Shown: one piece after another, positions 18,689-45,517 of the stretch
Layout: each line of letters begins with the position of its first letter
Position numbering within the stretch: the stretch's first letter is position 1
Assembly: GCA_964539385.1 (NCBI GenBank)
Contig: CAZIJC010000003.1
Span: forward strand, 1,503-65,502
Source: an uncultured Anaerolineales bacterium
GTDB taxonomy: Bacteria > Planctomycetota > Phycisphaerae > FEN-1346
Direction: 5' to 3'
Length of the DNA stretch: 64,000 bases
The notes under the pieces: generated by a model
Databases searched by the model: none
The model's input: only the letters and a program-made list of their open reading frames with translations
What the model was told of the DNA's origin: nothing
Position numbers and translations under genes: made by a program

Positions 18689-20642
18689 ACTCTGGCAGCC
18701 GCCCGAGCGCATGACGGCCGCCGAGTGGGTACCGCGGTGGGTGCGTCTGCCCGCGACCGTGGCGGCGATTCCCGGCCGGTGGTCGGCCGACCTTTTCCCA
18801 TACTGCACAGGGGTGCTCGATGCCTGGTGTGACCCGTACATCGAGCAGATTGTATTGGAGTGGGGGTCACAGTTGGGCAAGACCACCCTGATCGCCTGCC
18901 TCGCGCTGTACGTGGCCGACCAGGACCCCGGCCCCATGCTCTTGGCCTCAAGCGTGCAGTCGAGCGTCAAGGAACTGGTGAGCCTGCGCCTGTATCCCAT
19001 GCTTGAGGCGTGTGACCGCACCAGGGAACTCTTGCCGCCCAAGCACCTGCAAGATGATTACCTGGTCTCCCTAACGACCATGCTCATCTACACCGGATGG
19101 TCCGGCAGCGCCACGCGGATGGGCGAGAAAAGCATCCGGTACGTGATGATGACGGAATTAGATAAGTGGGCCATCCGCACGAGTCTTGAGGCCGACCCCG
19201 AACATCTGGCCGGCGAGCGCCGCAAGGCGTTTCCCAACTTCAAGATACTCAAAGAGTCCACGCCGACCATTGAGGGCCTGTCACGCATTCACTCGGCCTA
19301 CCAGGCCAGCGACCGGCGCCGCTTCCACGTGCCATGTTCCAAATGCGGCGCCTATCAGGTACTGGACCGGGCCAACGTATGGTGGCCCCACACCCAGGAG
19401 GGCAAGAGCGTGGCGCCCGCCGAGGTGCGCGACGTGGCCCTTTACGTCTGCCCCCATTGCAACGGGCGCCTTGAGGACTATCAGAAACCCCGCCAATTGC
19501 GCGCGGGCCTCTGGCTCCCCGAAGGCGTGACGGCCACCGTGATCCGCCACCGGAAAAAGGCGCGGCGGCGCGACGTGGTTTGGGGCCGCCCGCCCAAGTG
19601 GCCGGCCAGGCCGTGGCTCACCAAAGGCGTCAAGTGGAAATGGGACCTCTTTGAGTACCGGCTGGCCGGCGAGCCGGCCAAGACCACGCGCACGGCCGGC
19701 TACCACCTCGGCAGCCTCTACTCGCCGCTACTGACCTATGGCCATTATGCAGAAAAGTGGCTTGACTCCCAGGACGACCCGGCGGCCTTGCAGAACTTTA
19801 TCAACGGGTGGGATGCCAAGCCCTGGCGGCTGTCGGTCTCGATGCCAGCGGCCGAGGAACTGGGCGAGCAACTCAAGACCGGCCACGAACCGGGCACAGT
19901 GCCCAAGGGGGCCGTGATGTTGACCGCCGGCGTGGACCCCGCCGAGCATGTGATAAACTACGTCGTGCGCGCCTGGGCCAAGGATGGCACCAGTTGGCTC
20001 ATCGAGCACGGTGTGGTCGAATGGTCCAGAGACCTGCATACCGTCTACAACGCCATCATCGAACCGGCGTGGACGGTCGAGGGCGGCGGCACGATGGCCG
20101 TCCATTGCTGCGGCATCGACACCGGGTGGCAAGCCGGCGTGTGCTATGAGTTTTGCGTCCGGCAGGGCGATCGGGTGCGCGGTCTCAAGGGCCATGGGAC
20201 GGTCGGCAGCGTGTGGAAACCCCTGCGCGTGGACGTGAATCCGGAAAGCGGCAAGGTCTACAAGCGCGGTCTGGTGGTGTGGGTGATTGATTCGGGATAT
20301 TGGAAAGACCAGATACATCATCGCTGGGGTCTCGACTCCGAAAGCCCAGGCAGTTGGAACCTGCACGCCGAACCGAGCCGGCCGTACCTTCGACAGTTGG
20401 TGGCCGAGGTCAAGAGCAAGGTGACCGACAGGACCGGCCACGAAAAATTGCAATGGGTGGTGGTGGACCGCGGGGCCGGCTCGCACTATCTCGACGCCGA
20501 GGTCTACGCCATGGCCGTAGCCTACATGAAAGGGATTGGCCGCGTGGCCAGGACCCGGCGCCGGCCCGGCCGGGGCAAGGGCGGGGCGGCCCATACGATG
20601 CGCCGGTTGCGGATGCACCGGGGGCATGGACGGAAAGGGTGA
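18664..20642 (+). CDS. terminase large subunit (GpA family)
   Basis: Lambda GpA-like N-terminus (EWVPRW, LEWGSQLGKTTL Walker A), 660 aa. Confidence 0.85.
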
Positions 20643-21067: not shown

Positions 21068-21331
21068 ATGGCCACCGTAGATGACATCGAGACCCTCGCG
21101 GATGCGTGCTCGACCGCCCTGGCCGCCGGCGACTACGCCACGGCCAAACTCAAGTGGACACAACTTTCTGTGATGATAGGCGCAAAGCCGGACGTGACCA
21201 CCCCCGAATTGTCCACCCGGTGGGACCGCGCCGCGCTCGATGGCCTGGGAAAGCAAATCGCCGCGCTTGAACAAGAGACGGGACGGCGCCGGCGGCGGGT
21301 GTTGGCCGGTTTTCGCAACCGGGGCAGATAA
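21068..21331 (+). CDS. small head-tail joining (gpW-like position) protein, hypothetical
   Basis: 87-aa gene between terminase and portal; TAATG overlap with portal. Confidence 0.35.
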   Translation: MATVDDIETLADACSTALAAGDYATAKLKWTQLSVMIGAKPDVTTPELSTRWDRAALDGLGKQIAALEQETGRRRRRVLAGFRNRGR

Positions 21332-22887
21332 TGCCAAGGCCGAGTGATGGGAGTCTGGGCAATCTTCACGTGCAGTTGCGTCGCGCTTCTGAGCGCACGG
21401 TGCTCGACCGTGCCATCGGCTTCGTCTCCCCGCGCGCCGAACTCGCCCGCCTCAAGGGCCGCGTCAGCCGTACCATGCTCGGATTCCGGGCGGCCAACAT
21501 CAGCCGCCTGCGCCGCCGCCGCGACCGGACCAGCGGGTCGGCCGACCGGCATCTTACGCACGCCCAACTTCACGTGTTGCGCGAGAACGCGCGCGAGTTG
21601 GACCGCGACAATTGCATCGCCGGCGGTCTGCTCAATCGCATGGTCGATAACATCGTCGGCGAGGGCGGGCGCTTTGAGGCCCTTACCGATGACGAGCAAT
21701 GGAACACGCGGGCCGAGGGCCTGTTTGACGAGTGGGCCTTTGATGCCGACACGGTGGACGTTGCCGGGCGGTTTGCCTTTTGGGAAATGTCCCGGTCCGC
21801 GCTCCGGGCCGTGCTGGTGGACGGTGACCATCTCATGCTCAAGATTCGCAACGGCACCTTGCAGCAAGTCGAAGGTCACCAGTTGGGCACGCCGACCCGG
21901 CGCAGCATCCCGGCCGGCACGCCGTCGGGCACGCGCATCATCCACGGCGTCGAGATTACCAAAACCAACAAGCCGGTGGCCTACCATTTCGGGCCGAGCC
22001 ACCGCGGCATCGAGCATATCTTCAAGACCACCCGCGTCGAGGCCAGCAAACTCTTTTGGCTCTGGAACTGGAAACGGTGCAGCCAGACGCGCGGACAGTC
22101 GAGCCTGGCCGACACCGATATTTACTTCGAGCACCTTGACCGATATATCGAGTTTGCGATTGTGGCATCCCAGGTTGCGAGCGCCCACGTCATCGGCGTC
22201 GAAACCGAATATGGCGAAGCGTCGGGCGAGCCGGAAGGCACCACGGAACTCGATGAGTTGGGTAACGAGCAATTTGTTGAGGAGAACCAAGCGGGCACCA
22301 TGCTCTACATGGAGCCGGGGGAGAAAGTCAAGCCTCTCACGCCCGCCCACCCGATGCCGGAGTTTGAGCCTTTCTTGCGGGCCTTCGGCCGCATCATCGG
22401 CCTGCCCTATGGCCTGCCGATCGAGGTGGTCCTGCTCGACTGGTCGCAGGGCAACTACGCCAGCGCCCGCGGGGCCATGCAGCAGGCCAAAAAAGCCTGG
22501 CGAAACTGGCAGAAATACATCTACACCCACCTTATGTGGCCGGTATGGGTTTGGAAGATTCGCCAGTTTATCGCCGAGGGAAAACTGGCCAACCGTGATG
22601 ACCACGCCAAGATGCTGTGGGTGGGGCCTGGGTGGGATTGGATTGACGTTTACAAAGAGGTCGTGGCCGCCGAACGGGGTATCGGGTGCGGCATCGAAAG
22701 CCGGGCCAGGGTGCTCATGCAGCGCGGCCTGGACCTGGGGAACCTCATGCGCGAGCGGGCCAAGGCCATCGTGATGGCCAAGGCCATCGCCAAGGAGTTT
22801 GAGATTGAGAATTACAAAGACGTGCTCGGCAAGGTGAAAAAGCCGGCCGGCCGCGCGACGAAGCGCGGCGGTACGCAAGGGGAGTGA
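21331..22887 (+). CDS. portal protein, lambda (gpB) family
   Basis: Collinear similarity to lambda gpB including GNYASARGAMQQAKKAW and WVGPGWDWID blocks. Confidence 0.85.
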   Translation: MPRPSDGSLGNLHVQLRRASERTVLDRAIGFVSPRAELARLKGRVSRTMLGFRAANISRLRRRRDRTSGSADRHLTHAQLHVLRENARELDRDNCIAGGLLNRMVDNIVGEGGRFEALTDDEQWNTRAEGLFDEWAFDADTVDVAGRFAFWEMSRSALRAVLVDGDHLMLKIRNGTLQQVEGHQLGTPTRRSIPAGTPSGTRIIHGVEITKTNKPVAYHFGPSHRGIEHIFKTTRVEASKLFWLWNWKRCSQTRGQSSLADTDIYFEHLDRYIEFAIVASQVASAHVIGVETEYGEASGEPEGTTELDELGNEQFVEENQAGTMLYMEPGEKVKPLTPAHPMPEFEPFLRAFGRIIGLPYGLPIEVVLLDWSQGNYASARGAMQQAKKAWRNWQKYIYTHLMWPVWVWKIRQFIAEGKLANRDDHAKMLWVGPGWDWIDVYKEVVAAERGIGCGIESRARVLMQRGLDLGNLMRERAKAIVMAKAIAKEFEIENYKDVLGKVKKPAGRATKRGGTQGE

Positions 22888-24559: not shown

Positions 24560-25069
24560 ATGAGCACCCAATCGCACTCAGCCGCGGCTAAAGCCAAAGC
24601 CAAGGCCGACGCCGAAGCCAAGAGGGCGGCCGACGCCGACGCCGATGCCGAAGCCAAGAGGGTAGCCGAAGCCGAAGCGGACGTCGAAGCCGAAGCGGAC
24701 GCCGAAGCCAAGAGGGCGGCCGACGCCGAAGCGGACGCCGATAGAGACGAACATGCCGGGGCCGACGGGAAGCGCAGGTCGGACGATGTACCGGGGACCA
24801 CACGCGAGCCTGATGCCCCCAAGCCGGGGAGTGACGCCCCCCGGCCGGGGGCCGAGCGTGGTCAACCTGCCACCGGGGTTGCCGCCGCGACCGCCGCGGC
24901 CGGCCAACCCGCGACGTTGGAGGAGGCCGTTGAAAGCCACCTCAAACGTCACCCGACCTGCCACCGTTGGCTTGCCGTGGACATCTGCCGCCAGGCTTAC
25001 CCGGAACTCGCCGGCCTGCCGCCCACGCGGTTAAGCCGGCAGCGCGCCAAGCAACGGCAAGGCGGGTAG
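24560..25069 (+). CDS. Ala/Asp/Glu-repeat protein (scaffold-like), hypothetical
   Basis: Tandem (ADAEAKRAAD)-like repeats encoded by DNA tandem repeat 24590-24750. Confidence 0.45.
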   Translation: MSTQSHSAAAKAKAKADAEAKRAADADADAEAKRVAEAEADVEAEADAEAKRAADAEADADRDEHAGADGKRRSDDVPGTTREPDAPKPGSDAPRPGAERGQPATGVAAATAAAGQPATLEEAVESHLKRHPTCHRWLAVDICRQAYPELAGLPPTRLSRQRAKQRQGG

Positions 25070-25664: not shown

Positions 25665-26642
25665 ATGGCCGTTAGCGCAGCCGCTACCCTGCAACGCCCG
25701 GACCTGGGCGTTACCATCGAGGAATACCGGCTTGAGGCGCTCAGCCGGTCCCTCATCGCCGACCAGGCGCTGCCGCTGTTTGAGGTGGCCCTGCAATCCG
25801 CCGAGTTCGGCGTGATCCCGGTCGAGACTGGCCTGCGCGTCCCCGACACCAACCGGGCGCCCGGCGCCGCGTACCCGCGCGGTGACTGGCAGTTTGAGAC
25901 CGACTACTATGCTTGCTCCGAGCATGGTTGGGAGGAGGTGGTTGACGACAGCCGCGCCGCCATCTACCGGCGTTTCTTCGACGCCGAGCAAGCGACCGCG
26001 AGAAAGGCGGCCAAGGTCTTTTACACGGCCCGCGAGTACCGGGCCTCGGCCTTGCTGTTCAACACGACCACCTGGTCGGTGGCGGACACCGAAAAGCAGA
26101 CGGTTAGCGTGGAGTGGGACACGTCGGCCACCGCCGTGCCGCGCGCCGAGATTCTCAAGGCCCGCAAGCAAATCCATGCGGTGACCGGCCTCGAACCGAA
26201 CGCGCTCATCGTGACGTGGAGCACCTACCATGACTTGCTCAACTGCGCGAGCATTCTCGACGCCCTGAAATACACCGCGCCGCTTGAGGTCAGCCCGGAA
26301 GTTGCGCGGCGCCGCATCCTGGCCACCGTGCTCGGCGTTGATCGGATTCTGGTCGGGGGTGCCATCTACAACAGCGCTCTCGAGGGCGCCACGCCAACGC
26401 TCGTGCCCGTGTGGGACGACGAGTACGCCATGCTGGCCTGCGTCTGCGAGGAAAACGCGGACCTCGAAATCCCCGCCGTCGGGCGCACGTTCCTCTTTAC
26501 CGGCGACTCCCCCGACCTGGTGGTCGTGGAAAGTTACCGCCTTGAGGAAAGGCGCAGCGACGTGATCCGCCTGCGGCAGCACGTGCACGAGAAAGTGCTC
26601 CGCAAAGACGTGGCCATCCTGTTTGACAACATCACCACCTGA
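25665..26642 (+). CDS. major capsid protein (lambda gpE / phage major capsid protein E family)
   Basis: 325 aa, follows decoration gene, RBS AAAGGAG; characteristic length and position. Confidence 0.8.
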   Translation: MAVSAAATLQRPDLGVTIEEYRLEALSRSLIADQALPLFEVALQSAEFGVIPVETGLRVPDTNRAPGAAYPRGDWQFETDYYACSEHGWEEVVDDSRAAIYRRFFDAEQATARKAAKVFYTAREYRASALLFNTTTWSVADTEKQTVSVEWDTSATAVPRAEILKARKQIHAVTGLEPNALIVTWSTYHDLLNCASILDALKYTAPLEVSPEVARRRILATVLGVDRILVGGAIYNSALEGATPTLVPVWDDEYAMLACVCEENADLEIPAVGRTFLFTGDSPDLVVVESYRLEERRSDVIRLRQHVHEKVLRKDVAILFDNITT

Positions 26643-26715: not shown

Positions 26716-27066
26716 ATGGGAGCACCACGTCGTGCCGACCCGAATGGCTGTGGGGGCAAGCACCTGAAACTGGTGCTGGCCCTGGGCCTGCCCGTGATGG
26801 CCCTGGTGCTGGCCATCAGCGCGTGGGTGCACACCGGCGCCGCCTCGGCCCTGGCCACCCATCAAAAGGCCCAGGCCGCCGCGGCCGCGGTTTCCGAGAC
26901 CCGGCTGCGGTCCCTTGAGGGTGACCGGGCGAGCCTGGTGACCGCCACCGATAACCTGCGCAGGGAACTCGAGCGCGCCCGCCAGGACGTCCGGCAGGCC
27001 ATGGCCGACCTCAAGCGCGAAATCGACCGGCTGCAACCGCGGCCACCGACGGCCGCGGACAACTGA
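26716..27066 (+). CDS. membrane-anchored coiled-coil protein, hypothetical
   Basis: TM helix LVLALGLPVMALVLAISAWV then coiled coil; start uncertain. Confidence 0.35.
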   Translation: MGAPRRADPNGCGGKHLKLVLALGLPVMALVLAISAWVHTGAASALATHQKAQAAAAAVSETRLRSLEGDRASLVTATDNLRRELERARQDVRQAMADLKREIDRLQPRPPTAADN

Positions 27067-27079
27067 AAGGGTTTCATTC

Positions 27080-27601
27080 ATGCGGTATTTTGCCATTGCG
27101 ATTTGTCTTGCCCTGGCCGTCCTGGCTGGCTGCGCCAATCCCGCCATCGAGCAAGCCGAACGCCTGCAACTGGCGGGCCTGGAGCAATACCGGGCCGAAA
27201 TGCAAACATATCACACCAAGAGCCTGGCCACCATCCGCGCGCTCAATCTTGAAAAACTGGACGCCGCTTTCACCGATTCCGTGCGCCTGGCCGCCGTCCC
27301 CCCACCCGATCCCGCCGCCGAGGGCGCCGAGCCGATGGTCCCCCTGTCGGCCGTCTTTGAGAAAGTCGCCAAGGTCGCTGCGCTGCGCGCCGACCTTGAG
27401 ATCAAACTGACCACGCTCGACACCCAATTTGCCGAGCGTGATGCCCTGGCCGCCCGCCTGATCCGGATAGGCCAGGGCAAACTCGACCTCATCACCGCCT
27501 ACACCCGGCTGGCCGCGGCGTGGCGTGCGCTGTGGACCCGCGAGCCGGAGTTTGCCGATTTGTCCGCCGATGCCAGAAAGGTGCTCGAAGATGGCCAGTG
27601 A
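27080..27601 (+). CDS. hypothetical lipoprotein
   Basis: MRYFAIAICLALAVLAGC lipobox. Confidence 0.5.
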   Translation: MRYFAIAICLALAVLAGCANPAIEQAERLQLAGLEQYRAEMQTYHTKSLATIRALNLEKLDAAFTDSVRLAAVPPPDPAAEGAEPMVPLSAVFEKVAKVAALRADLEIKLTTLDTQFAERDALAARLIRIGQGKLDLITAYTRLAAAWRALWTREPEFADLSADARKVLEDGQ

Positions 27602-27857
27602 AGCCGACCTTACCGCCGCCGCCGCCAACTTCATGCGCGAGGCCGCCCGCTACAGCGCGGCCGCCAGGGACCCGGAGGACCCGCTTGACGGGGTATCGTT
27701 CAGGGTCCCCGACCTGGGGGGCCTTGACCCGGTGGTCACCGACGAGGACGCCAGCGCCGTCATCGCGCGGATGGGCGCTGCCAAGGCGCCGGCCGAAGCC
27801 ATCCCGGCCCTGGTGACCATGGCCCGCAGCCTGGCCACGTTCTTTGGCCTGGCGTGA
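27591..27857 (+). CDS. hypothetical phage protein
   Basis: ATG MASEADL overlapping previous gene end. Confidence 0.35.
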   Translation: MASEADLTAAAANFMREAARYSAAARDPEDPLDGVSFRVPDLGGLDPVVTDEDASAVIARMGAAKAPAEAIPALVTMARSLATFFGLA

Positions 27858-27927
27858 TCCCAGGGTCTCGGGCCAGGTGAAACCAACACAGGGGGCGAGA
27901 TAACCGCCAATCGAAAGGAGCGCACAA

Positions 27928-28140
27928 GTGTGTAACATCTTCACCAGTAAAAAGAGCGTCATGGCCTTGCTGGCCGTGGCCATGGTTTTTGCCCTGGGCA
28001 TCGTGGTGTTGGTCACCCACGTCGAATCCTTCGACCAGGCCAAAGAGGTGATGTTCTACCTGGTCGCAAGCATCACCGGCATCGCGGTGGGGCATAACGT
28101 CAGCCAGGGAATCGCCGACCACGGCAAGCCGGCCGAATGA
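27928..28140 (+). CDS. small two-TM membrane protein (holin-like)
   Basis: GTG start 8 nt after AAAGGAG; two hydrophobic helices; 70 aa. Confidence 0.4.
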   Translation: MCNIFTSKKSVMALLAVAMVFALGIVVLVTHVESFDQAKEVMFYLVASITGIAVGHNVSQGIADHGKPAE

Positions 28141-28237
28141 CCTGGCCGACGCCCTGTAAGGAATGACCCGTTTGACCAGCGGGGGTCGGCACGGGCCGCC
28201 CCGTGTCGGCCCCCATGTTTCAAGATAGGGGCAAAAC

Positions 28238-29344
28238 ATGGCATACGCATTGTGCTGTTATTACGGGGGTGGCGGGGCCGAGGCGTGTTTGCTCTGTGTG
28301 CCGGACTCGACGCCCGGCGCTGGCGGGGCCGCCCTGGTCGCCGACCTCAAGATTTTGGCCGACCGCATCGGTCCCTGCAAATACGACGCTACCGCAGCGC
28401 CCACCGCCGATGATGACGAGAATGACGGCTATCGGGTGGGTTCCCGGTGGTTCAACCTCACCACCCAGGACGAGTATATCTGCATCGACGCCACGGCCAC
28501 GGCGGCCGTGTGGATAGCAACAACCCTTGCGCCGGGCAGTGTGGGTACCTCGGACCTGGCCGACCTGGCCGTGACCACGGCCAAGTTGGCCGCCGGCGCC
28601 GTGACCGTCGCCAAGATTGCGCCCTTCGGCGAGGGTGAAACCTTGCTCTTTGGGTGCGGGTGTTGCGGCATCATCCATGGTTGCGATGATGCCGGTACGC
28701 CGTACCTGTCCATTGCCCACCCCACCCGGCTCTGCCTTGAGACCGGCTGCATCATTACGGCCGGCAGCATTTGCGCCGGCCCGATCGTCAGGGGTACCTG
28801 CCTCGTGGCGGCCGAGGCCGTGGTCGCCGGCACCTGCGCGCACGCCAAGTTGGTGTTTGCCTCGTGCTGCGGCATCGTGGGGTGTTCCGATTTCGCCGCG
28901 CTGCCGGCCGGGTGCCTTTGCACCACCAAGGCCGAGTTGGATTCGACCTATTACAATGCCGAGATGGCCTTTCTCAAATCTGAAGCCAACTGCATGTATC
29001 TGATGTGCGTCAGGGCCTGCGGGGGCCCCGCACAACTGCAAGTCAACTGGTCGGACGGTGTGGGTCTGGCCAATCTGGGCAAACTGATTGTCGGCGAGTG
29101 CTTACAGGGCGGGTGTCAGGTGGAATCGCCCTTGCTCACAGTTACATGCGGGAACGTCGATTGCAACCTGGTGGTGGGCGAAGCCATCACGGCCGGATTG
29201 CTCAGCGCCTGCGCTGTTGTGGGTGGCGAACAACTGCTGGTGCCTGGCAACCAATGCGAGGTGACCCGCAATATGTATTGGGATGGCACCGACCTGATGG
29301 TCTATACCGGCGCCGCCTGGGTGTGCTTCTGCCAGAAATCCTAA
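28238..29344 (+). CDS. tail fibre protein with cysteine-rich C-terminal domain
   Basis: N-terminal GYRVGSRWFNLTTQDEYICIDATA and DLADLAVTTAKLAAGAVTVAKIAP tail-fibre repeat; about 40 Cys in 368 aa (CGCCG, CC, CxC clusters). Confidence 0.55.
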   Translation: MAYALCCYYGGGGAEACLLCVPDSTPGAGGAALVADLKILADRIGPCKYDATAAPTADDDENDGYRVGSRWFNLTTQDEYICIDATATAAVWIATTLAPGSVGTSDLADLAVTTAKLAAGAVTVAKIAPFGEGETLLFGCGCCGIIHGCDDAGTPYLSIAHPTRLCLETGCIITAGSICAGPIVRGTCLVAAEAVVAGTCAHAKLVFASCCGIVGCSDFAALPAGCLCTTKAELDSTYYNAEMAFLKSEANCMYLMCVRACGGPAQLQVNWSDGVGLANLGKLIVGECLQGGCQVESPLLTVTCGNVDCNLVVGEAITAGLLSACAVVGGEQLLVPGNQCEVTRNMYWDGTDLMVYTGAAWVCFCQKS

Positions 29345-29369
29345 TCGCCGGGGGGCGAAAGGGTGTGAT

Positions 29370-30353
29370 ATGCGTACCGATTTCGATAGCGTTGCCCTGG
29401 TGGTCGAAGGGGGCATCGGCCGGTGTATCGCCGCCACGGCCGTGGTGCGGTGCCTGGCCGCCGCCCATCCCGGCAAGCGCCTGGTGGTGGTGACCGGGTG
29501 GCCGGACCCCTTTATCGGCAATCCCCACGTGGCCCGCATCTACCGCATCGGGGACCCGCAGCATTTCTTTGAGGACGAGGTGCTCGGCCGGCGCACCTGG
29601 GTGGCCCACGTGGAACCGTACCGCCATCCCGATTACGTCAACGCCGAGCGGCACCTGGTCGATTGCTGGTGTGATCTGTTGGGGGTCGAGTATGACGGCG
29701 GCACGCCTACCCTCTTTTTGACGCCGGGGGAACTCGATCAGGGCAAGGCCGCCATGGCCAAGGCCCGCCGGCCGGTGGTGCTCATGCAGGCCAGCGGCGG
29801 CCCGGTACCGGCCACCCAGGACCTGGACCGGCTCATCGAGGTACGCCGGCGGATGCACCGCCGCAACCTGCCCTTGAACATTGCCGGCCAGGTGGCCAAT
29901 GCCCTCATGGCCAAAGGCTACCACGTGGCTCTGGTACGGCATCAGAACCAACCGGCCTTGGCCGGCGTCGAGTCGGTGACCGGCCCCCTGCGCACCATCT
30001 TCGCCCTCGTGCCCTTCGCCAAGCACCTGGTGCTCATCGACTCATTTATGCAGGATGCAGCCGCGGCCCTGCAACGGCCGGCCGTGGTGTGTTGGGGGGG
30101 CACCAGTTACAAGCGCCTGGGTTGGGACCTGCACACCAACATCGAGCAAGATACGGGATGCCCCACTCCCAGGTGCCACCGCCCCAACAGTTATCTGTGG
30201 GACCGCGACGCCAACGGCAATCCGTGGGATTGTCCCTACGGCGATAAGTGCATGAATCAGTTTGACCCCAAGGGCATCCTCGCCGCCCTGGGGGAGAGCG
30301 AAACCCAGAAAGGGGAACCCGATGCCACTCAAAGTGGACCTGGCGGCCGGTGA
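29370..30353 (+). CDS. glycosyltransferase family 9 (heptosyltransferase-like)
   Basis: GT9-like C-terminal FALVPFAKHLVLIDSFMQDAAAALQRPAVVCWGGTS. Confidence 0.55.
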   Translation: MRTDFDSVALVVEGGIGRCIAATAVVRCLAAAHPGKRLVVVTGWPDPFIGNPHVARIYRIGDPQHFFEDEVLGRRTWVAHVEPYRHPDYVNAERHLVDCWCDLLGVEYDGGTPTLFLTPGELDQGKAAMAKARRPVVLMQASGGPVPATQDLDRLIEVRRRMHRRNLPLNIAGQVANALMAKGYHVALVRHQNQPALAGVESVTGPLRTIFALVPFAKHLVLIDSFMQDAAAALQRPAVVCWGGTSYKRLGWDLHTNIEQDTGCPTPRCHRPNSYLWDRDANGNPWDCPYGDKCMNQFDPKGILAALGESETQKGEPDATQSGPGGR

Positions 30354-30678
30354 AACCGCCCTGGCGACGGACCTGCCCGCGGCGCACCTGGTGGTTAAGA
30401 GCGTGACCATCAAGATGCCGGCGGCGGCAACGGAAACGGCCGCGGCCGAGGCTGAGGTGCAGGTGTACGCGAACGGGGCTGCAAGGGCAGCCGGCGGGCA
30501 GCCGGCGGAAAGCCTGCCCGTCCGGCTCGAAGTGCCGGCGGATGATTGGGCCGTCATCGAGGGCTTGGTATTTGATGCCCTCAAGGCGGCCGACCCGACC
30601 TTTATCCGCGCTGTGCCGGTGGAAGACACGGTGCCCGCACGCCCGGCCCCAGCGCCCGAGGTACCCGAAAGCCCATGA
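30322..30678 (+). CDS. hypothetical phage protein
   Basis: RBS GAAAGGGGAA, ATG 30322. Confidence 0.4.
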   Translation: MPLKVDLAAGETALATDLPAAHLVVKSVTIKMPAAATETAAAEAEVQVYANGAARAAGGQPAESLPVRLEVPADDWAVIEGLVFDALKAADPTFIRAVPVEDTVPARPAPAPEVPESP

Positions 30679-31139
30679 CCCTGCGCGACACCCACAAAGC
30701 CGACGTGGCCACGATACTGGCCGGCGAAGATTTCAGCCTGCCCGTGCGCTACCTGCCGGCGGGGGACCTGGGCGCGAGCCGGATGGTACGCGCCGCCGAG
30801 GTGACGGCCGAGGACCGCCTTGAGCAATCGGATGAGGGCCAGGACGTGGAGCGCACGCGGGTCCTGGTCATTGCCCGCGACGATGACAACTCCGGCATCG
30901 AGGCGCCCAGTGTGCAGGACGGGGACAAGTTTCAGTTTCCGGCCTCGTCCCTCGACTGGTCAACCATGACCCCCGGCGAATGGGCCGAGTTGACGGTTGA
31001 CGAATGGGCCGCCCTGGCCGCGGCCGACGAGGAATGGGTGCTCATCGGTATCGACCGCCAGGACGAATATACAAGCCGGCTCCGCCTGGTGCGCGTGGAC
31101 CGCCGCCAGGTCACACAACCGGACTACCGGAGATCGTAG
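30675..31139 (+). CDS. hypothetical phage structural protein (head-tail connector region)
   Basis: ATGA-coupled ORF, 154 aa. Confidence 0.45.
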   Translation: MTLRDTHKADVATILAGEDFSLPVRYLPAGDLGASRMVRAAEVTAEDRLEQSDEGQDVERTRVLVIARDDDNSGIEAPSVQDGDKFQFPASSLDWSTMTPGEWAELTVDEWAALAAADEEWVLIGIDRQDEYTSRLRLVRVDRRQVTQPDYRRS

Positions 31140-36352: not shown

Positions 36353-38812
36353 ATGGCCGACCAGAACACCGGCGCCGATGCCCTGGGGCAGTACCTCACC
36401 GGCGCGGGGTCCGACGGCGCAAGCCAACCTGATCCCGATGCAAGTTTGGGGAACTACCGGGCGGCCGAGCGGCTTGACCCCCTGGGGGTGCTGATGGCCC
36501 AGGGACCGCCCGGCCTGCGCATCGAGCGTGTGAGCGGCTACAACGGTGTGGGCGCCGCAAGCCTGGTGGCCGCCGGCGCCGACGCGGTGGCCTGGCGGCC
36601 GCCGGATGACACCGAGGGTGAGGCCATTGCGATCGCCGACGGCGAAACCCGCCAGGTGGCCGGTGCCGACGAACCCTACTGGGCCAACATGAGCGTGGCC
36701 AGGTGGGCCGAGTTGACGGTTGCCGAATGGGCCGCCATGGGCATCGGCGGCAGCGGCCTCGACGGGTTTGCCATCGTGACCCGGCGCAGCACCGAACCCC
36801 TGGCCGGCGAGTTTGTGGCCCACCTCGACCGGGTGGTCGGCAACGTGGTGGGCGGCAGCCGGCAGACCGCCAGCGGCGAAGCGTACCGATGCGTTTGCCT
36901 CAAGAACACCACCGGCGACGGCAAGACCCTCGGCTTGTGGCACCTGGCCGACACCGCGGCGGATGGCCTGGCCGACGTGGCCACCACCACCCGTGACTTT
37001 ACCAATCATGGCGCCGAGCACGTGCCCGGCCAGGGGTACCGCTTCGTCAAGGCTGAGAACGATTACATGCAGGCTACGGTCGGCGCTCTCGACGCAATTG
37101 CGGCGGTGACAATGGAGTGTTGGGTCCGCGATTGGCAGACCCCGATTGATTCCTATGGGCAGATAGCCCGTTTCTGGACGGACAGCAGCAACCGCCTTAT
37201 GCTGGATGCCAAAATCACTACCGACCCTGCCTCGTCCTACATCTGCGCGTCCCTGAAAATCGGAGGAGACTGGTCGCCCACTGCCTCTTGGACGGGCGTC
37301 GATGCCAACGCACTGCTCGTCGGAAGCGATCCCTGGCATGTCGCCGTCGTGCTCGATGCCCCGAACACCCTTCGCCTCTTTGTGAATGGTATTCTCCGCG
37401 CCGAGGTCGTGCCGCTTGGCAATGAACTACCTATCGGCACGTATTATCTCATACTTGGCTACGGCTCGACTGCGGCCGCTCTCTCGGCCATCGTGGACGA
37501 ACCCCGACTGTCAAGCGCCGCGCGTTACTCCGCCACGTTCACCCCGGACACCCTCTTGCCCGAGCGCGCCATGACCGGCGTGACCGCGTGGCTCGCGCCC
37601 GACCGCACGCCCAAGACCGTGGCCGGCAACTACGGCACCGCGGGCGCCACCATCACGGTGGACGGGGACCTTGACGACTGGCCGCCCACCGGGTGGATGG
37701 TCAACAAGACCACCGACGAGGTTCTGTGGTACATCGTGCGTACCAGCACCCAATTGACCGTAGACCCGGACGGCCGCGACGTGTGGGACGAAACCGGCGG
37801 CGGCGCCGGCGTCGGCATGGCCGGCTCGGCCGGCGACGTGCTGGCCCTGGTGGGGCCGGCGCGCATCGGCAAAGAGACTCCGAGCGCACAGCCGGACGGA
37901 TACTTTACCACCGTGAGCCCGGAAACCTCGGCCCCCGGCGGCGTGACCTTCGAGCACCCGTGGGGGAGCCTGGACCCGACCGCCCTTGACCTGGGGACCG
38001 TGGCGGCCGGCGAAATCGTTGGCCTCTGGATCGAGCGCATGGCCCTGGCCAAAACCGGCGGCGGCCGGCACGCCGAACCCCGGCGCCATACGGCCGTGGC
38101 CGTCCAGTGGACGGAATACCTGGTGCACACCCACAACGCGGCCCTGCCCGGCCTCGGGCGCGTCGGAGATACCAGCGTGCTCCGTTACGGTTTGTGGCAT
38201 GGTGTGGACGCCGAGCCGGACTTGACCGCCGATCCCGACGAAACGTCCGACACGTTGCCTTTTGTCTATACCGCCATGACCCCGGATGCCGTCAACTACC
38301 TGGTCGTGCGGCAGCGGAATGATTGGGGCCTCTGGTCTCAGAATACCATGGCCTGGCAAATCGAACTCGACGCCCAGGGGCCGCCGGGCGTGGTGGCGGT
38401 CAAACCGTCGGCGCCCAAGCCCTACGCCGTCGAGCCGGCGGCCGGCGGGGATTTCCGGGTGGTGGCCGATTACTTTTACCTGCTCGACGGCCAGTGGGCC
38501 GCGGGCACGTGGGTGATCTGGTATCAGCACGGCGCCTCGCCGCCCGACCCGGACCCCGACGTGGATACCCCCGACGCCACGGTCACCATGGCCAAGAGCG
38601 ACGGCGTTGCCTGTCTGGACTGGACCGCCGGGCTCACCCTCACCGACGGGCATACCGTCAAGGTGGTGGTGCGTACCCGGCGCGTCGATGCCGGCCCCGT
38701 CAACGTGGACAGCGCCAACACCGGCGTGGTGCAGGCCACCATCAACACCGACGGCCCCCCCACCCCGCCGGCCCAGGCCCATTACGGCGTGGTCGCCAAA
38801 GAGGTCGAGTGA
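36353..38812 (+). CDS. tail/baseplate protein with concanavalin A-like (LamG) domain
   Basis: 819 aa; central region with LamG-like pattern (DAIAAVTMECWVR...LILGYGS). Confidence 0.5.
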   Translation: MADQNTGADALGQYLTGAGSDGASQPDPDASLGNYRAAERLDPLGVLMAQGPPGLRIERVSGYNGVGAASLVAAGADAVAWRPPDDTEGEAIAIADGETRQVAGADEPYWANMSVARWAELTVAEWAAMGIGGSGLDGFAIVTRRSTEPLAGEFVAHLDRVVGNVVGGSRQTASGEAYRCVCLKNTTGDGKTLGLWHLADTAADGLADVATTTRDFTNHGAEHVPGQGYRFVKAENDYMQATVGALDAIAAVTMECWVRDWQTPIDSYGQIARFWTDSSNRLMLDAKITTDPASSYICASLKIGGDWSPTASWTGVDANALLVGSDPWHVAVVLDAPNTLRLFVNGILRAEVVPLGNELPIGTYYLILGYGSTAAALSAIVDEPRLSSAARYSATFTPDTLLPERAMTGVTAWLAPDRTPKTVAGNYGTAGATITVDGDLDDWPPTGWMVNKTTDEVLWYIVRTSTQLTVDPDGRDVWDETGGGAGVGMAGSAGDVLALVGPARIGKETPSAQPDGYFTTVSPETSAPGGVTFEHPWGSLDPTALDLGTVAAGEIVGLWIERMALAKTGGGRHAEPRRHTAVAVQWTEYLVHTHNAALPGLGRVGDTSVLRYGLWHGVDAEPDLTADPDETSDTLPFVYTAMTPDAVNYLVVRQRNDWGLWSQNTMAWQIELDAQGPPGVVAVKPSAPKPYAVEPAAGGDFRVVADYFYLLDGQWAAGTWVIWYQHGASPPDPDPDVDTPDATVTMAKSDGVACLDWTAGLTLTDGHTVKVVVRTRRVDAGPVNVDSANTGVVQATINTDGPPTPPAQAHYGVVAKEVE

Positions 38813-41800
38813 TGGCAACCATACAGATAAACGAGACCGGCGCCGCGGGCACTATTGAGGATATGGCCCGCGTAGTGGTTTATACCAAGGCCAAGTGGTC
38901 TGACGACTGGACCCGCGCGCGCTATCTCTGGCCCCTGCGCATCGTGGACGTGGGCGGCCCCGGCGTCGGCTACGCCTCTTTGGTGTTTGAGGCCGGGCGC
39001 ATCACGCAACCGGACCTGACCACGTGGCACGAGTATCCGAAACTGGCCGACCTGTCCGGGGCGTTTGTCAAGATTTGCCGCCTGGCCGGCGAGCGGCCTG
39101 ACCTCGGTTGGGAGTGGGCCACGGAGTTCGAGACCCTTTGGATCGGCGTTATCGACATTCAGAATCTTGCCTATCACGGCGCCGACGCGAGCGACGAGGC
39201 GTGCAATCAGACCGTGACCGCCTTCGACCTGAAATACCTCTTGGCCGGCCGCCGGCTCGACCACGCTTGGGTATGCCCCAAGACCGGCGCCGAGCCGGTT
39301 CGCGTCGAGTGGGCGCCGCCGTTCAATCAGCGGATGCGCCGGGCCTTGCCCGTCCAGGGCAATGCGGTGAACCTGGGGGGCACGGTCGGCCACGTTTTCG
39401 GCCGCGAGACCGATGATGAAACCGAGGCCCTGCGGCGGTGGACGAATGCCGACGTGTTGCAATACGTACTGTATCGGTTCGCGCCCCGGATGGACCCGGA
39501 CGATGATGCCAGCGACCTCTTGTTTTATCCCGGCGGCCAGTGCGCGTTGCTTGACAACATCGTCGAGCCCCACGACTTTTCCGGCCGCAGCGTCCTGCAA
39601 ATCGTGCAGCGCCTCATCGATCCCCGGCGCGGCCTGGGGTGGCGCGTGGTCACCGACGGGGATGCCGGCAGCACCATCACCATCGAGGTCTACAGTATGC
39701 TGCCGGAAACCCTCACCGCCGGCGGTATCACCCTGGAGCGCAATATCCGGCCCGTCTCTCTGGACGTCCGGCAGGACCCCTTCGCCGGACACGCGGCGGT
39801 CACCTACAGCCGGAGCAATGCCTTTCAGACCGTGCGCGTGCAGGGGAACCGCGTCCTGGTTTGTTGCAGCCTGTCGATTGCCGACGGGACCCTTGAGGCC
39901 GGTTGGACGGGGACGCTTGAGGCGGCGTACAAGACCGCGGCCGGCAGCAGTGATGAGGCCGAAAATGACCGCTACCGCGGCCGCGACCAGTTTGAGCACG
40001 TCTACTCGCGTCTGGCCGTACCGGCCGGGTGGGATTGGCAGGCCGGCGACGGCGTGGGCGGGGACAAAATCAACGTCAATATCTACACCGATGATGCCGG
40101 CGATGCCATCACGCTTGTGCCCCTGCCCGCATTCGATGAGTTTACGGCCTTCGAGCGCGGCCTGCCCTTGTGGGAAGGGTACGACTACACCGAATGGCCG
40201 GCCGTCAATGAGAACCCCGCCGGCGCCGAGCCGTATCTGCGCCGCCCCCTGGTCGTGGTCAAGGCGCCCAATGCCGACGGTGATGACGTGTGGCACCTGG
40301 CCGACCGCCTCAGCGCTTCGGTCGATGAACTGGGAAAGCGCTATCCCAATGCGGGCGTGACGATGCTCGACGGGCGCCTGTGCCTGTCGGTGCGCTTCAC
40401 GCCCCGCCACGTCGCGGCGCTGAACCATTGGACGATCGAGGGCGAGGATGACCCGGCCTACACCCGGTGGCCGCCGATGGTGGATTACGCCGACTTTATC
40501 GCCACCGTGGCCCTGCGCGGCAACGCCCGCCTGGCCGTGGTGGTGGAGACCGGATTCTACTGCCGCGGACGGGTCTTGACCATCGACGTGCCCGACGCCG
40601 ACTTGTGGTGGGTGGTCGCGGGCACGGTGATCGACGTGGACTCAGGGGGCGACCTGGTGCGGATGGATGCTTCGCGCGTCCTGCATACCGACGCCGACCG
40701 CCTCAAACGTATTGCCATGTTGGCCAAGGCGTACTACCGGCGGCCGCGGTACACGGCGAGCCTGGTCTTGCGGCGTATCGACCAGGGCCTTGCGGTGGGC
40801 CACCTGCTTCACACTCTCGAGGGTGAGGACGGCGCCGGCCTCGATTCGGTCATCACCCGGCGGGTGTTCGACTTTATCGAGGGCACGACCACCATTGAGA
40901 CCGCCAACGCCGAACTGGACTGGCGTAGCCTGGTGGCCGACCAGGCCGGCGCAGGGCTGGCCGGCGTGACCCTGGCCAGGACGGTGGGCGTGCAGGGCCA
41001 CCGGCTCGATGCCCTTGAGCGCCGCACGGCCAACCTGCCCGACCGCATCCCGCCGCAGACCCCCAGGGACCCGCCCGGTCTTGAGTTTGGCACGGTACAG
41101 ACCCGGCACACCAACACCGGCACTCCGTGGGGGTCCTTCGAGGGCGACGGCTTTATCGAATGGATAAGCGTCTATCCATGCTCAAGCAATGGCGATGGCG
41201 TGGACGAGGACACCACCCTTACCATCAAGTGCACCCAAAAGGCTGAGGATACGACCGAGGCCAAGGTCGGGTTTGCCCATATCCTGGGTGGTCACGTGAT
41301 TGGGTTTGTGCGGATGGACGAACACGAGACCGCACCGGGGGGTGGTCCCTATGACGGCCAGGTCGTGGCCAATGCCGGCATCAACGGCGCCGTCCTGTCC
41401 GGGGTTGAGCCGAGCCATACCGAAATCCCGCCGTGCGAGTTTGGCACGGTCCTGGCCATCAAAAATCATGCCGACGGCGGGTGGGCGAGTTGGGAAGCGG
41501 ATGGCTGGATCAGCCACGTGCAGGTGGACACCACCTACAGCACCGGGGCGCCGGTTGACGACAGCGAAACCGTTTGGCTCAAGGCCGCCGAGGACGTGCA
41601 GGCCCAAATCGGTTACGACACCATCGAGGTGGGCGACGTGATTGGTTTCGTGCGGGGCGACGGGTGGGAGCCCAAGCCGGGCGGCGGCACGTTCCACGGA
41701 TACGTGATCCCCAACGCGGGCATCGACGGGGCGGTGCTGACCACCTACAAGGTCCGGGGACCCATCCTTTACGACCCATGGAAATACCCCCAGGTATTCC

Positions 41801-44871: not shown

Positions 44872-44875
44872 GGCC

Positions 44876-44940
44876 GCTTGCCTTTCCTGCTCACCAGCGG
44901 GCGCGCCGTCCCACAATCTGGGACCGTCATCCCCCATCAT
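44876..44940 (-). repeat. leader repeat R2 copy (RBS-containing)
   Basis: GGACGGCGCGCCCGCTGGTGAGCAGGAAAGGCAAG in mRNA sense, shared with 45519-45573; extra MGDDGPRLWD-encoding segment shared with 44297-44340. Confidence 0.6.
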
Positions 44941-45316: not shown

Positions 45317-45517
45317 GGCGCCTTGGCCTTTCTGCACGCCCTGACGTGGCGCTCAAAGTTGCGCAATGCGTAGATAAGCATGAGTTGCCGCCTACCGGCC
45401 ACCTTCGGCCGGCCGTCCTTGCGCCGGCTGCCGCGCGGATGCTTCACCTGGTAGCGCCCCGGAAACTCTCGACCGCAAACCGGGCAGGTCAACGGCTCAT
45501 CGCGGGCGGTGCTCACG
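45313..45517 (-). CDS. small zinc-finger protein
   Basis: GTG start after AGGAAAGG (in R2 copy); CPVCG...H...C; ATGA overlap with rusA. Confidence 0.4.

What the first reader, a model, noticed from the sequence alone, without database searches (positions are those of the whole stretch)
28238..30353. Cysteine-rich tail-fibre protein followed by a GT9 (heptosyltransferase-like) glycosyltransferase inside the structural module
The 368-aa protein has tail-fibre N-terminal motifs but a C-terminal two-thirds with about 40 cysteines in CC/CxC/CGCCG clusters, which is unusual for a fibre tip. The next gene is a GT9-family glycosyltransferase, a family normally acting on LPS cores. The pair could mean virion-protein glycosylation, host LPS modification (lysogenic conversion or superinfection exclusion), or a metal/disulfide-stabilised receptor-binding domain.
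Basis: partly seen in the sequence, partly recalled or inferred. Interest (0 to 1): 0.6.

Follow-up and report, generated by a model that had tools for sequence, protein, structure and literature searches.

The report
Cysteine-rich phage fibre with dedicated glycosyltransferase
A prophage encodes a fibre-like protein with a very cysteine-rich tip, followed directly by a distant relative of heptose-transferring enzymes; the same pairing recurs in many unrelated uncultured phages, so the enzyme probably acts on the fibre, although no experiment has tested this.

Summary
Both genes are real and lie at the stated coordinates. ORF A (28238-29344, 368 aa) has 31 cysteines, not about 40. That is 8.4% against 1.4% in the window's other genes. 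Fibre motifs occur only at aa 49-128. ORF B (29370-30353, 327 aa) has no Pfam hit of its own. Its family does match GT9 (19 of 34 members hit PF01075). Its confident AlphaFold model is closest to WaaF, a Veillonella GT9 enzyme, TibC and WaaC.

The main result is a conserved two-gene module. In 11 of 15 viral contigs whose ORF B homologue has a four-cysteine finger, a cysteine-dense protein lies directly upstream. The figure is 13-14 of 15 within 3.5 kb. In the reverse direction, all 15 evaluable loci with the large cysteine-rich fibre-tip domain have the enzyme immediately downstream. The cysteine-rich partners fall into at least five sequence-unrelated types, and their cysteine positions turn over.

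My best reading (about 0.45) is that ORF B is a fibre-specific protein glycosyltransferase, working like TibC/Aah on adhesins. It is not a member of that family. It also lacks the canonical GT9 catalytic Asp. Receptor or LPS modification and a chaperone role remain possible. Neither partner has a close relative in cultured phages: the enzyme has three distant matches and the cysteine-rich domains none. No paper on the module was found. I score it as a new variant of a known kind.

The parts
28181..28214 (+). 15-bp G+C-rich stem-loop just upstream of ORF A's ribosome-binding site, between the 70-aa two-TM gene and ORF A. It may be an attenuator or weak terminator; its role was not established.
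   Evidence: a perfect 15-pair stem; the 96-nt context folds at -45.6 kcal/mol, z = -3.1 against shuffles. One search shows the sequence, with AGGGG six nt before the ATG. The consensus terminator scan did not call it.
28238..29344 (+). ORF A: a 368-aa fibre-like protein with a cysteine-rich C-terminal two-thirds (31 Cys).
   Evidence: Gene callers predicted it as 368 aa in four independent assemblies and as 348 aa in one.
28382..28621 (+). ORF A aa 49-128: an N-terminal fibre anchor motif plus the 'LADLAVTTAKLAAGAVTVAKIA' fibre repeat.
   Evidence: phrog_33012, phrog_892, phrog_28766; dozens of fibre and surface proteins share only this stretch.
28625..29341 (+). ORF A aa 130-368: a cysteine-rich domain with 25 Cys and five Cx4C motifs. 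It is almost an orphan and its fold is unknown.
   Evidence: among 1.84 billion representative proteins, only the protein itself and P0002 match over the whole length. AF2 pLDDT 33.7; motif positions; no match in 50,697 phage records.
29370..30353 (+). ORF B: a 327-aa GT-B fold enzyme, a remote GT9 relative. It starts 25 nt after ORF A's stop, and its 3' end overlaps the next gene by 32 nt.
   Evidence: gene layout.
29406..29438 (+). ORF B aa 13-23: the N-lobe glycine loop EGGIGRCIAAT (G14, G15, G17 and T23 invariant). Arg18 sits where GT9 enzymes have the catalytic Asp.
   Evidence: invariant columns; family 'GkniaaT' aligns to WaaF 'GDMMMSQ'. TibC Asp-110 and the equivalent WaaC residue act as catalytic base.
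30039..30056 (+). ORF B aa 224-229: the C-lobe donor-site motif D-S-F-M-Q-D. D224 and S225 are invariant. Position 229 is His in at least 90% of the family but Asp here.
   Evidence: One search aligns it to WaaF 'NDSGLMHVAAAL'.
30159..30251 (+). ORF B aa 264-294: the four-cysteine finger CPTPRC-x18-CPYGDKC (C264, C269, C288, C294).
   Evidence: all four are invariant in the close clade; the distant clade lacks the first pair. TibC has an analogous Cys4 iron finger (C339, C342, C358, C370) inserted in the C-lobe, used for dimerisation and for recognising its beta-helical substrate.
30322..30678 (+). Next gene of the operon (118 aa), overlapping the end of ORF B. Listed for context only.
   Evidence: gene calls in L001-L004; weak phrog_9849 match, unknown function.

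Best explanation
**Proposal.** ORF A and ORF B form a substrate-enzyme pair.
- ORF A is an accessory virion fibre. Its N-terminal third anchors and extends it. Its cysteine-rich C-terminal domain is the exposed, fast-evolving tip.
- ORF B is a soluble cytoplasmic glycosyltransferase of the GT-B fold, a remote GT9 relative.
- ORF B is made from the same late transcript as ORF A. It would attach sugar from a nucleotide-sugar donor to many sites on the tip before the fibre is assembled.
- Its four-cysteine finger would help it dock on the substrate.

This is how TibC and Aah treat the adhesins TibA and AIDA-I. Neither the donor sugar nor the acceptor residue is known.

**Shown here:** the genes, the fold, and the conserved gene linkage in both directions.

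**Inferred:** catalytic activity, the fibre as acceptor, and incorporation of ORF A into the virion.
For: **Fold and active-site conservation**
- The ORF B model is confident (pLDDT 88.9). Its best structural matches are GT9 enzymes, including the protein heptosyltransferase TibC.
- The invariant residues sit at strand-to-helix loops of both Rossmann lobes, where GT-B enzymes bind donor and acceptor. These are G14/G15/G17/T23, E82/Y84, G143/G144, R165, D224/S225 and W242.
- ORF B is under purifying selection (dN/dS 0.15).

**The wider family behaves like enzymes**
- More distant members sit among sulfotransferases, a GT2-methyltransferase and NodU-like carbamoyltransferases.

**Linkage from enzyme to cysteine-rich protein**
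- Of 15 viral loci with a Cys4-finger enzyme, 11 have a cysteine-dense ORF (at least 10 Cys per 150 aa) directly upstream. The count is 13-14 within 3.5 kb.
- The comparison figures are 9 of 65 for enzymes without the finger and 8.9% of background ORFs.
- The same holds in L006, L007, L011, L013 and L014 and in all three bacterial-genome loci.

**Linkage from cysteine-rich domain to enzyme**
- All 15 of 15 loci with the ~550-aa cysteine-rich domain and DNA beyond its stop have the enzyme next, on the same strand.

**The link follows cysteine richness, not one fold or one anchor**
- The cysteine-rich domain is a module on different anchors, GpJ-like or fibre-like.
- At least five sequence-unrelated cysteine-rich types pair with the enzyme.

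**Gene layout**
- Gaps between the two genes are 18-48 nt, or the genes overlap. No promoter or terminator lies between them.

**A cultured-phage relative shows the same layout**
- Pelagibacter phage HTVC112P gp49 lies directly after tail fibre gp48, a repetitive NTAxG/NTT beta-roll-type fibre.

**ORF A evolves like a receptor-binding tip**
- dN/dS is 0.40, which is 2.4 times ORF B's nonsynonymous rate at equal dS.
Against: - There is no direct evidence of any glycan on any of these proteins.
- ORF B itself fails Pfam GT9.
- The family has Lys/Arg where GT9 and TibC have the catalytic Asp.
- The window's enzyme has Asp at the near-invariant His229. Its activity and donor are therefore uncertain.
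- ORF A is not in the tail-fibre slot. It follows a set of small membrane-protein genes, so its presence in the virion is an assumption.
- Gene adjacency would also arise for a chaperone, or for a receptor-masking enzyme matched to the fibre.
- Two Cys4-finger enzymes (L010, L094) have no cysteine-dense neighbour.
- The loci are phylogenetically related, so the Fisher P values overstate independence.
Confidence: 0.45

Rival explanations
1. **Receptor masking.** ORF B modifies the host envelope (LPS core or another surface glycan) that the cysteine-rich fibre tip recognises. This would protect the lysogen from superinfection, or stop progeny virions sticking to cell debris. Enzyme and fibre tip would travel together because both are specific for the same receptor.
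For: - The closest solved structures include the LPS heptosyltransferases WaaF and WaaC.
- The window is a prophage flanked by host genes (HisRS, a radical-SAM/BATS enzyme, a T2SS/T4P ATPase), so lysogenic conversion is possible.
- A receptor-specific enzyme would be expected to co-segregate with a receptor-binding domain.
- From my own knowledge: in P22 the gtr O-antigen modification genes lie next to the tailspike gene.
Against: - ORF B is embedded in the late structural operon, with no promoter or terminator of its own. It overlaps the next structural gene.
- The canonical GT9 catalytic Asp is missing.
- Family members occur on contigs binned to Saccharibacteria and Anaerolineales. From my own knowledge these are monoderm lineages without LPS; binning of phage contigs is unreliable.
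- This reading does not explain why the partner domain is cysteine-rich across unrelated folds.
- No match to known defence or exclusion models.
Confidence: 0.17
2. **Assembly factor.** ORF B is a dedicated folding or assembly chaperone for cysteine-rich fibre tips that has kept a glycosyltransferase fold but no longer transfers sugar. It might, for example, hold thiols reduced or deliver metal through its Cys4 finger. Tail-fibre chaperones are typically encoded just downstream of their fibre.
For: - The enzyme gene always lies immediately downstream of the fibre gene and is co-oriented with it, as with known fibre chaperones (own knowledge: T4 gp38, lambda Tfa).
- The canonical catalytic Asp is lost.
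- The Cys4 finger occurs only in the clade paired with cysteine-rich partners.
Against: - Residues at both GT-B binding loops are invariant across a family with 38% mean identity, including the D-S donor motif and R165. A pure chaperone would not need them.
- Distant clade members sit in glycan-tailoring clusters.
- I know of no chaperone with a GT-B fold.
Confidence: 0.13
3. **No direct tie to the cysteines.** The cysteine-rich domain is a self-sufficient metal- or disulfide-stabilised receptor-binding tip. ORF B glycosylates other residues (Ser/Thr/Tyr/Asn) on it, or other virion proteins, or another target. Cysteine richness and the enzyme would co-occur only through shared ancestry or habitat.
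For: - ORF A has five Cx4C motifs, plus CC and CxC pairs.
- About 14 cysteine columns are kept in at least 8 of 11 type I sequences.
- A short stretch of ORF A resembles an Ig-like repeat with a cysteine pair.
- Hosts appear to be uncultured lineages that are often anaerobic, where free thiols are stable.
Against: - Most cysteine positions are not conserved. 105 of 220 cysteine columns are singletons, and cysteine identity (0.41) is below W, G, P and Y. ORF A against L006 keeps 19 cysteines and loses or gains 7, no better than the overall 70% identity.
- A habitat effect is unlikely, because the N-terminal 500-1100 aa of the same proteins and the neighbouring genes have almost no cysteine.
- Five or more unrelated cysteine-rich types share the same enzyme clade.
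Confidence: 0.15

Closest known systems
Bacterial autotransporter heptosyltransferases (BAHT: TibC, Aah) with their adhesins TibA and AIDA-I
   Same: - GT-B enzyme related to GT9. TibC chains are among the top structural matches.
- A four-cysteine metal finger is inserted near the end of the C-lobe (PMC4358343).
- The enzyme is encoded next to a long repetitive surface-adhesion protein that it modifies at many sites in the cytoplasm.
   Different: - No N-terminal beta-barrel domain: ORF B starts with the first Rossmann strand at residue 7.
- The catalytic Asp-110 equivalent is Lys/Arg.
- Cysteine spacing differs: Cx4C-x18-Cx5C against Cx2C-x15-C-x11-C.
- The partner is a phage fibre tip rich in cysteine, not a Ser-rich beta-helix.
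- Oligomeric state, metal, donor and acceptor are all untested.
LPS core heptosyltransferases WaaC and WaaF (CAZy GT9, Pfam PF01075)
   Same: - Best overall structural matches (1psw at E=9e-12).
- The C-lobe motif IDSxxxHAAAA aligns to WaaF NDSGLMHVAAAL.
- 19 of 34 family members hit PF01075.
   Different: - ORF B itself has no Pfam hit, and sequence identity is only 10-15%.
- The G-D catalytic motif reads G-K/R.
- It is a phage gene in a late structural operon, obligately paired with a fibre gene.
- It occurs on contigs binned to lineages that I believe lack LPS.
Phage virion glycosylation by phage-encoded glycosyltransferases (mycobacteriophages)
   Same: Glycosyltransferase genes placed beside structural genes and thought to decorate virion proteins. 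Papers found, for example PMC11256854, infer capsid glycosylation from two encoded glycosyltransferases.
   Different: - As far as I know those enzymes belong to other GT families and act on capsid and tail-tube subunits.
- No cysteine-rich acceptor, no Cys4 finger and no GT9-like fold has been reported there.
- I did not compare sequences here.
Glycocin S-/O-glycosyltransferases (SunS, ThuS, ThgS)
   Same: Enzymes encoded next to a cysteine-containing peptide substrate. They can put sugar on Cys as well as on Ser/Thr (PMC12457901 and PMC6405829, listed).
   Different: - From my own knowledge these are GT2 (GT-A fold) enzymes; ORF B is GT-B.
- Their substrates are ~40-aa peptides with one or two glycosylated residues and conserved disulfides, not 240-550-aa domains with 25-65 cysteines.
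Pelagibacter phage HTVC112P gp48 (tail fibre) and gp49 (putative glycosyl transferase)
   Same: gp49 is a distant member of the ORF B family (22% identity, E=1e-12). It lies directly after the tail-fibre gene.
   Different: - gp49 lacks the Cys4 finger.
- gp48 is an Asn/Thr-rich repeat fibre with only 14 Cys in 756 aa.
- No function has been demonstrated.

Membership tests
CAZy GT9 / Pfam PF01075 (heptosyltransferases) | GT-B fold of two Rossmann-like lobes, closest to solved GT9 structures | tested here: met
   The AF2 model has pLDDT 88.9 and pTM 0.88. The top Foldseek PDB hits are WaaF 1psw, GT9 3tov, TibC and WaaC, at E of 1e-11 to 1e-8 and TM of about 0.6.
CAZy GT9 / Pfam PF01075 (heptosyltransferases) | Significant match to the PF01075 profile | tested here: inconclusive
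   ORF B has no hit even at E<=10. 19 of 34 homologues hit at E<=0.01, with a best value of 1.5e-7. The family profile against WaaF gives E=0.0048.
CAZy GT9 / Pfam PF01075 (heptosyltransferases) | Catalytic Asp in the N-lobe G-D loop (Asp13 of WaaC/WaaF, Asp-110 of TibC) | tested here: not met
   Every family member has Lys or Arg after the invariant Gly17, and no acidic residue is conserved in that loop. The positional match to WaaF G12-D13 comes; that local alignment is not significant on its own. The role of the Asp is taken from PMC4358343.
CAZy GT9 / Pfam PF01075 (heptosyltransferases) | C-lobe donor-binding motif D-(S/T)-x-x-x-H, plus a basic residue after the first C-lobe strand | tested here: inconclusive
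   D224, S225 and R165 are invariant. The His is present in at least 90% of the family but is Asp in the window and in L006.
CAZy GT9 / Pfam PF01075 (heptosyltransferases) | Uses ADP-heptose and acts on LPS core | not testable with these tools
   This needs an enzyme assay. No heptose-pathway gene was seen among the window genes I scanned, but the scan was partial.
BAHT family (TibC/Aah) | N-terminal beta-barrel domain (TibC residues 1-97) | tested here: not met
   ORF B is 327 aa and begins with Rossmann strand E7-12 and helix H16-32.
BAHT family (TibC/Aah) | Cys4 metal finger inserted in the C-lobe | tested here: met
   C264, C269, C288 and C294 are invariant in the close clade. They lie after the last Rossmann strand, as in TibC (C339/342/358/370). 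The metal and its role are untested. The model is less confident in this region (pLDDT 58-76).
BAHT family (TibC/Aah) | Beta-hairpin thumb, dodecameric ring, heptosylation of Ser on a beta-helix | not testable with these tools
   This needs structures of the oligomer and biochemistry.
Phage tail fibre (ORF A) | Fibre-type sequence motifs | tested here: met
   The tail-fibre families phrog_892 and phrog_28766, and phrog_33012, match aa 49-128. The same repeat occurs in many fibre and surface proteins.
Phage tail fibre (ORF A) | Gene located with the distal tail genes; protein present in the virion | tested here: not met
   The gene lies between the capsid gene and the head-tail genes. The window's large distal tail genes are at 36353-42561. 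Presence in the virion cannot be tested here. In other phages the cysteine-rich domain is clearly part of the tail tip (phrog_31 central fibre J).
Diversity-generating retroelement target (Mtd-like) | Template/variable repeat pair near the gene | tested here: not met
   No direct repeat involves the cysteine-rich region within 17000-46000. The only one touching ORF A is a 41-nt, 71% match at 28562-28602, in the fibre-repeat stretch. The Mtd_N Pfam label appears only on proteins that share the fibre repeat.
Glycocin S-glycosyltransferases (GT2) | GT-A fold of family GT2 | tested here: not met
   ORF B is GT-B.

The most novel reading that the evidence does not exclude
The cysteines themselves are the acceptors. 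The ORF B clade would be a GT-B, GT9-derived S-glycosyltransferase that coats phage receptor-binding tips with many thio-linked sugars.

This would explain three observations:
- unrelated domains share only their cysteine richness;
- cysteine number is kept while positions drift, with Ser, Thr and Tyr as frequent replacements;
- the usual general-base Asp is replaced by a basic residue that could favour a thiolate.

One caveat: the Lys/Arg is also present in clade members that have no cysteine-rich partner.
Probability: 0.15. Interest if true: 0.85.

Novelty: new variant of a known kind. Interest (0 to 1): 0.62.

Why it matters
Receptor-binding tips decide phage host range. A dedicated enzyme that always travels with one class of tip would be a new layer of host-range determination, acting through post-translational modification of the fibre.

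- The module occurs mostly in uncultured phages. Some contigs are binned to Saccharibacteria, Omnitrophota and Anaerolineales, where almost nothing is known about adsorption.
- If the acceptor is cysteine, this would be the first large-scale protein S-glycosylation system and a new activity for the GT9 lineage.
- Even in the conservative reading, it extends the TibC/Aah principle (an adhesin-specific glycosyltransferase encoded beside its substrate) from bacterial autotransporters to viruses.
- It also gives a simple, testable two-gene system.

Tried and rejected
**Searches that found nothing**
- Pfam, NCBIfam and PADLOC on ORF A and ORF B gave nothing useful.
- Neither cysteine-rich domain type has a match in 50,697 deposited phage genomes. 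For ORF B there are only three distant matches.
- Literature searches found no description of the module. The term sets covered cysteine-rich with tail fibre and glycosyltransferase; heptosyltransferase with phage tail fibre; virion glycosylation; and S-glycosylation with bacteriophage.

**Structure and homology of ORF A**
- AF2 on ORF A with a 12-sequence alignment failed (pLDDT 33.7), so nothing can be said about its fold, disulfides or cysteine exposure.
- An exhaustive HMMER search with the cysteine-rich domain (aa 130-368) against 1.84 billion representatives found only the protein itself, P0002 and two weak repeat matches. A word-index profile search added only the short type III proteins and proteins sharing the fibre repeat.
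- Remote homology between the cysteine-rich types was rejected. hhalign of type II against type I gave probability 1.3%. BLASTP with composition correction found no cross-type hits. The marginal hits without correction are compositional.

**Hypotheses rejected**
- Diversity-generating retroelement: no template/variable repeat.
- Genome-wide or habitat-driven cysteine richness: neighbouring genes and the N-terminal halves of the same proteins are almost free of cysteine.
- Non-coding or wrong-frame artefact: rejected by GC3, by conservation and by dN/dS.

**Could not be done**
A narrower alignment found only three loci.
- The window's host phylum could not be determined.
Full report
**1. What is at the coordinates**

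The window is a high-G+C (about 66%) bacterial segment carrying a lambda-like prophage.
- Host-type genes flank it: HisRS and a radical-SAM/BATS enzyme upstream, and a T2SS/T4P ATPase downstream.
- Inside are a gpA-type large terminase (18624-20642), a lambda-family portal (21331-22887), a protease/scaffold gene, a decoration protein and the major capsid protein (25665-26642).

ORF A (28238-29344, 368 aa) and ORF B (29370-30353, 327 aa) exist exactly as stated.
- They are separated by 25 nt.
- ORF B's end overlaps the next gene of the operon by 32 nt.
- No promoter-like or terminator-like site lies between or just after them.
- Both have coding-type GC3.
- Both are conserved with a diverged pair on another metagenomic contig (L006). 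There dN/dS is 0.40 for A and 0.15 for B, at the same dS of about 0.5.

**2. The cysteine claim**

ORF A has 31 cysteines, not about 40.
- That is 8.4% against 1.37% in the other predicted genes (P = 2e-15).
- It is the highest value of any long ORF in any frame.
- 25 of the 31 lie in aa 130-368. There are five Cx4C motifs, three CxC and three CC.
- Fibre motifs are confined to aa 49-128, a stretch shared with very many fibre and surface proteins.

The cysteine-rich part is nearly an orphan.
- An exhaustive search of 1.84 billion representative proteins finds only the protein itself and one 68%-identical relative over the full length.
- No deposited phage genome has it.
- AlphaFold could not model it (pLDDT 33.7).

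**3. The GT9 claim**

ORF B alone gives no Pfam hit even at E<=10. It does have a large family.
- 42 homologues came from the first search, and at least 583 relatives are in IMG/VR.
- 19 of 34 aligned members hit PF01075.
- The family profile finds WaaF.
- A confident model (pLDDT 88.9) is closest to WaaF, a Veillonella GT9 enzyme, the protein heptosyltransferase TibC, and WaaC.

ORF B is therefore a GT-B enzyme remotely related to GT9, and it departs from that family in three ways.
- The family has Lys/Arg where GT9 and TibC have the catalytic Asp.
- The window's copy has Asp at the near-invariant His229.
- The close clade carries an invariant four-cysteine finger, C264/C269/C288/C294. It sits in the same place as TibC's iron finger, which serves dimerisation and recognition of the beta-helical substrate.

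Residues that stay invariant across a family with 38% mean identity sit at the strand-to-helix loops of both lobes. That is what an active GT-B enzyme would need.

**4. The key finding: a conserved module**

In diverged, mostly low-G+C phage contigs, the ORF B homologue lies directly after a 750-1800-aa tail protein.
- The first 500-1100 residues of that protein contain no cysteine.
- Its last ~550 residues contain 26-65 cysteines.

Counts from enzyme to cysteine-rich protein:
- Among the 80 best IMG/VR loci, 15 enzymes have the Cys4 finger.
- 11 of those 15 have a cysteine-dense ORF directly upstream, and 13-14 have one within 3.5 kb.
- In one locus an HNH endonuclease gene is inserted between the two. 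In others a small ORF or an unrelated gene intervenes.
- The comparison figures are 9 of 65 for finger-less enzymes and 8.9% for background ORFs.
- All three loci found in bacterial genome bins show the same arrangement.

Counts from cysteine-rich domain to enzyme:
- Searching with the large cysteine-rich domain returned 20 loci.
- In all 15 that extend beyond the ORF, the enzyme gene is next on the same strand.

The large domain is a movable module. It sits on a GpJ-like central fibre in some phages and on a different fibre body in others. The two exceptions are L010 and L094.

**5. Why the cysteines themselves seem to matter**

The partners of the finger-bearing enzyme clade fall into at least five groups:
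- type I, the ~550-aa domain ending LDPxGxxNWLAIAYS;
- type II, ORF A and L006;
- type III, 166-186-aa proteins such as P0046-48, L026 and L118;
- singletons in L016, L022 and L024.

These groups have no detectable sequence relationship to one another. What they share is cysteine density.

Individual cysteines are not strongly conserved.
- ORF A and its 70%-identical relative share 19 cysteines and differ at 7.
- In type I, 105 of 220 cysteine-containing columns are singletons.
- In type I, cysteine is less conserved than W, G, P or Y, and is replaced mostly by S, T, A, Y and G.

A disulfide or metal scaffold does not behave like this. Composition kept while positions drift is typical of modification sites. 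This is inference, not proof.

**6. Mechanism**

The best-supported model (confidence about 0.45) is that ORF B is a fibre-specific protein glycosyltransferase. It would be co-translated with its substrate and decorate the tip in the cytoplasm before assembly. This is functionally like TibC/Aah acting on TibA/AIDA-I.

Two further observations support enzymatic sugar chemistry in the family.
- The distant clade is embedded among sulfotransferases, a GT2-methyltransferase and carbamoyltransferases.
- In the cultured Pelagibacter phage HTVC112P a distant member follows the tail-fibre gene.

The rivals are:
- receptor or LPS masking matched to the fibre (0.17);
- a chaperone that retains a glycosyltransferase fold (0.13);
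- an unrelated glycosylation role beside a self-sufficient cysteine-stabilised tip (0.15).

The most novel reading not excluded is multi-site S-glycosylation of cysteine by a GT9-derived enzyme (about 0.15).

**7. Membership against resemblance**

- ORF B works like a BAHT enzyme but is not one. It has no N-terminal beta-barrel, a different catalytic loop and different cysteine spacing.
- It is GT9-like by fold but fails the profile test on its own and lacks the catalytic Asp. 'Heptosyltransferase' should not be asserted.
- ORF A has fibre motifs but lies between the head genes and the head-tail genes, after a group of small membrane or lipoprotein genes. Whether it is a head fibre, a neck fibre or a side fibre is unknown.

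**8. Novelty**

- Neither cysteine-rich domain type occurs in 50,697 deposited phage genomes.
- Only three distant enzyme relatives do.
- Viral structure databases list the family as uncharacterised.
- Four literature searches found no description of it.

I rate it a new variant of a known kind (an adhesin- or virion-specific glycosyltransferase encoded beside its substrate), with a real chance of new chemistry.

Noticed in passing
window 28181-28214: A perfect 15-bp G+C-rich stem-loop lies just before ORF A's ribosome-binding site. The 96-nt context folds at -45.6 kcal/mol, z = -3.1. It has only a weak U tail, so it may be an attenuator between the upstream membrane-protein genes and the ORF A-ORF B pair.
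   Followed up: partly
window 26716-28140: Between the capsid gene and ORF A lie small genes that look like lysis or envelope proteins. One has a TM segment plus coiled coil (26716-27066). One is a lipoprotein with an LAGC lipobox (27080-27601). One is a 70-aa two-TM protein (27928-28140). This is an unusual place for a spanin/holin-like set. None matched any family.
   Followed up: partly
window 24560-25069: An acidic Ala/Asp/Glu-rich 169-aa protein is built from 18-nt tandem repeats (seven copies at 24580-24759). It sits between the protease/scaffold gene and the decoration gene.
   Followed up: no
window 30955-31017 and 36678-36740: A 63-nt direct repeat (79% identical) encodes a shared EWAELTVxEWAA peptide. 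One copy is in the 154-aa gene after ORF B and the other in the 819-aa Laminin_G_3 tail protein.
   Followed up: no
window 44288-45556: Two pairs of near-identical 46-52-nt direct repeats (85-94%) are spaced about 610-645 nt apart, in the minus-strand region beyond the tail genes. They may be repeated regulatory sites (D4 and D5).
   Followed up: no
window 30054-30056 (ORF B residue 229): The window's enzyme and its L006 relative have Asp where at least 90% of the family has His, in the donor-site motif IDSxxQH. This may mean a different donor or altered activity.
   Followed up: partly
L036, L041, L046 and similar loci (about 5600-9600): The finger-less distant clade of the enzyme family sits in low-G+C marine phage contigs. 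Its neighbours are sulfotransferases (PF13469), a GT2-methyltransferase fusion and a NodU-like carbamoyltransferase. That looks like a phage-encoded glycan-tailoring cluster.
   Followed up: partly
window 29090-29221 (ORF A aa 285-328): This stretch weakly resembles a repeated GGCxIxxGxVTxxSGxxDCxLT unit found up to nine times in very large bacterial surface proteins (P0097 at E=2.5e-9, and P0098). It hints at one Ig-like unit with a cysteine pair inside the cysteine-rich domain.
   Followed up: partly
L023 6330-6953: An HNH-type endonuclease gene is inserted between the cysteine-rich tail gene and its glycosyltransferase. This is the only place where a selfish element splits the pair.
   Followed up: no
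ends of the cysteine-rich ORFs: window 29318-29341; L022 3313-5472; L024 2-793; L016 5448-6536: The small cysteine-rich partners that are otherwise unrelated end in a similar C-terminal CxC motif: WVCFCQKS, CGICFCNG.., CNFCFCNG.. and WHCTCCG... This could be a shared recognition or assembly tag.
   Followed up: no
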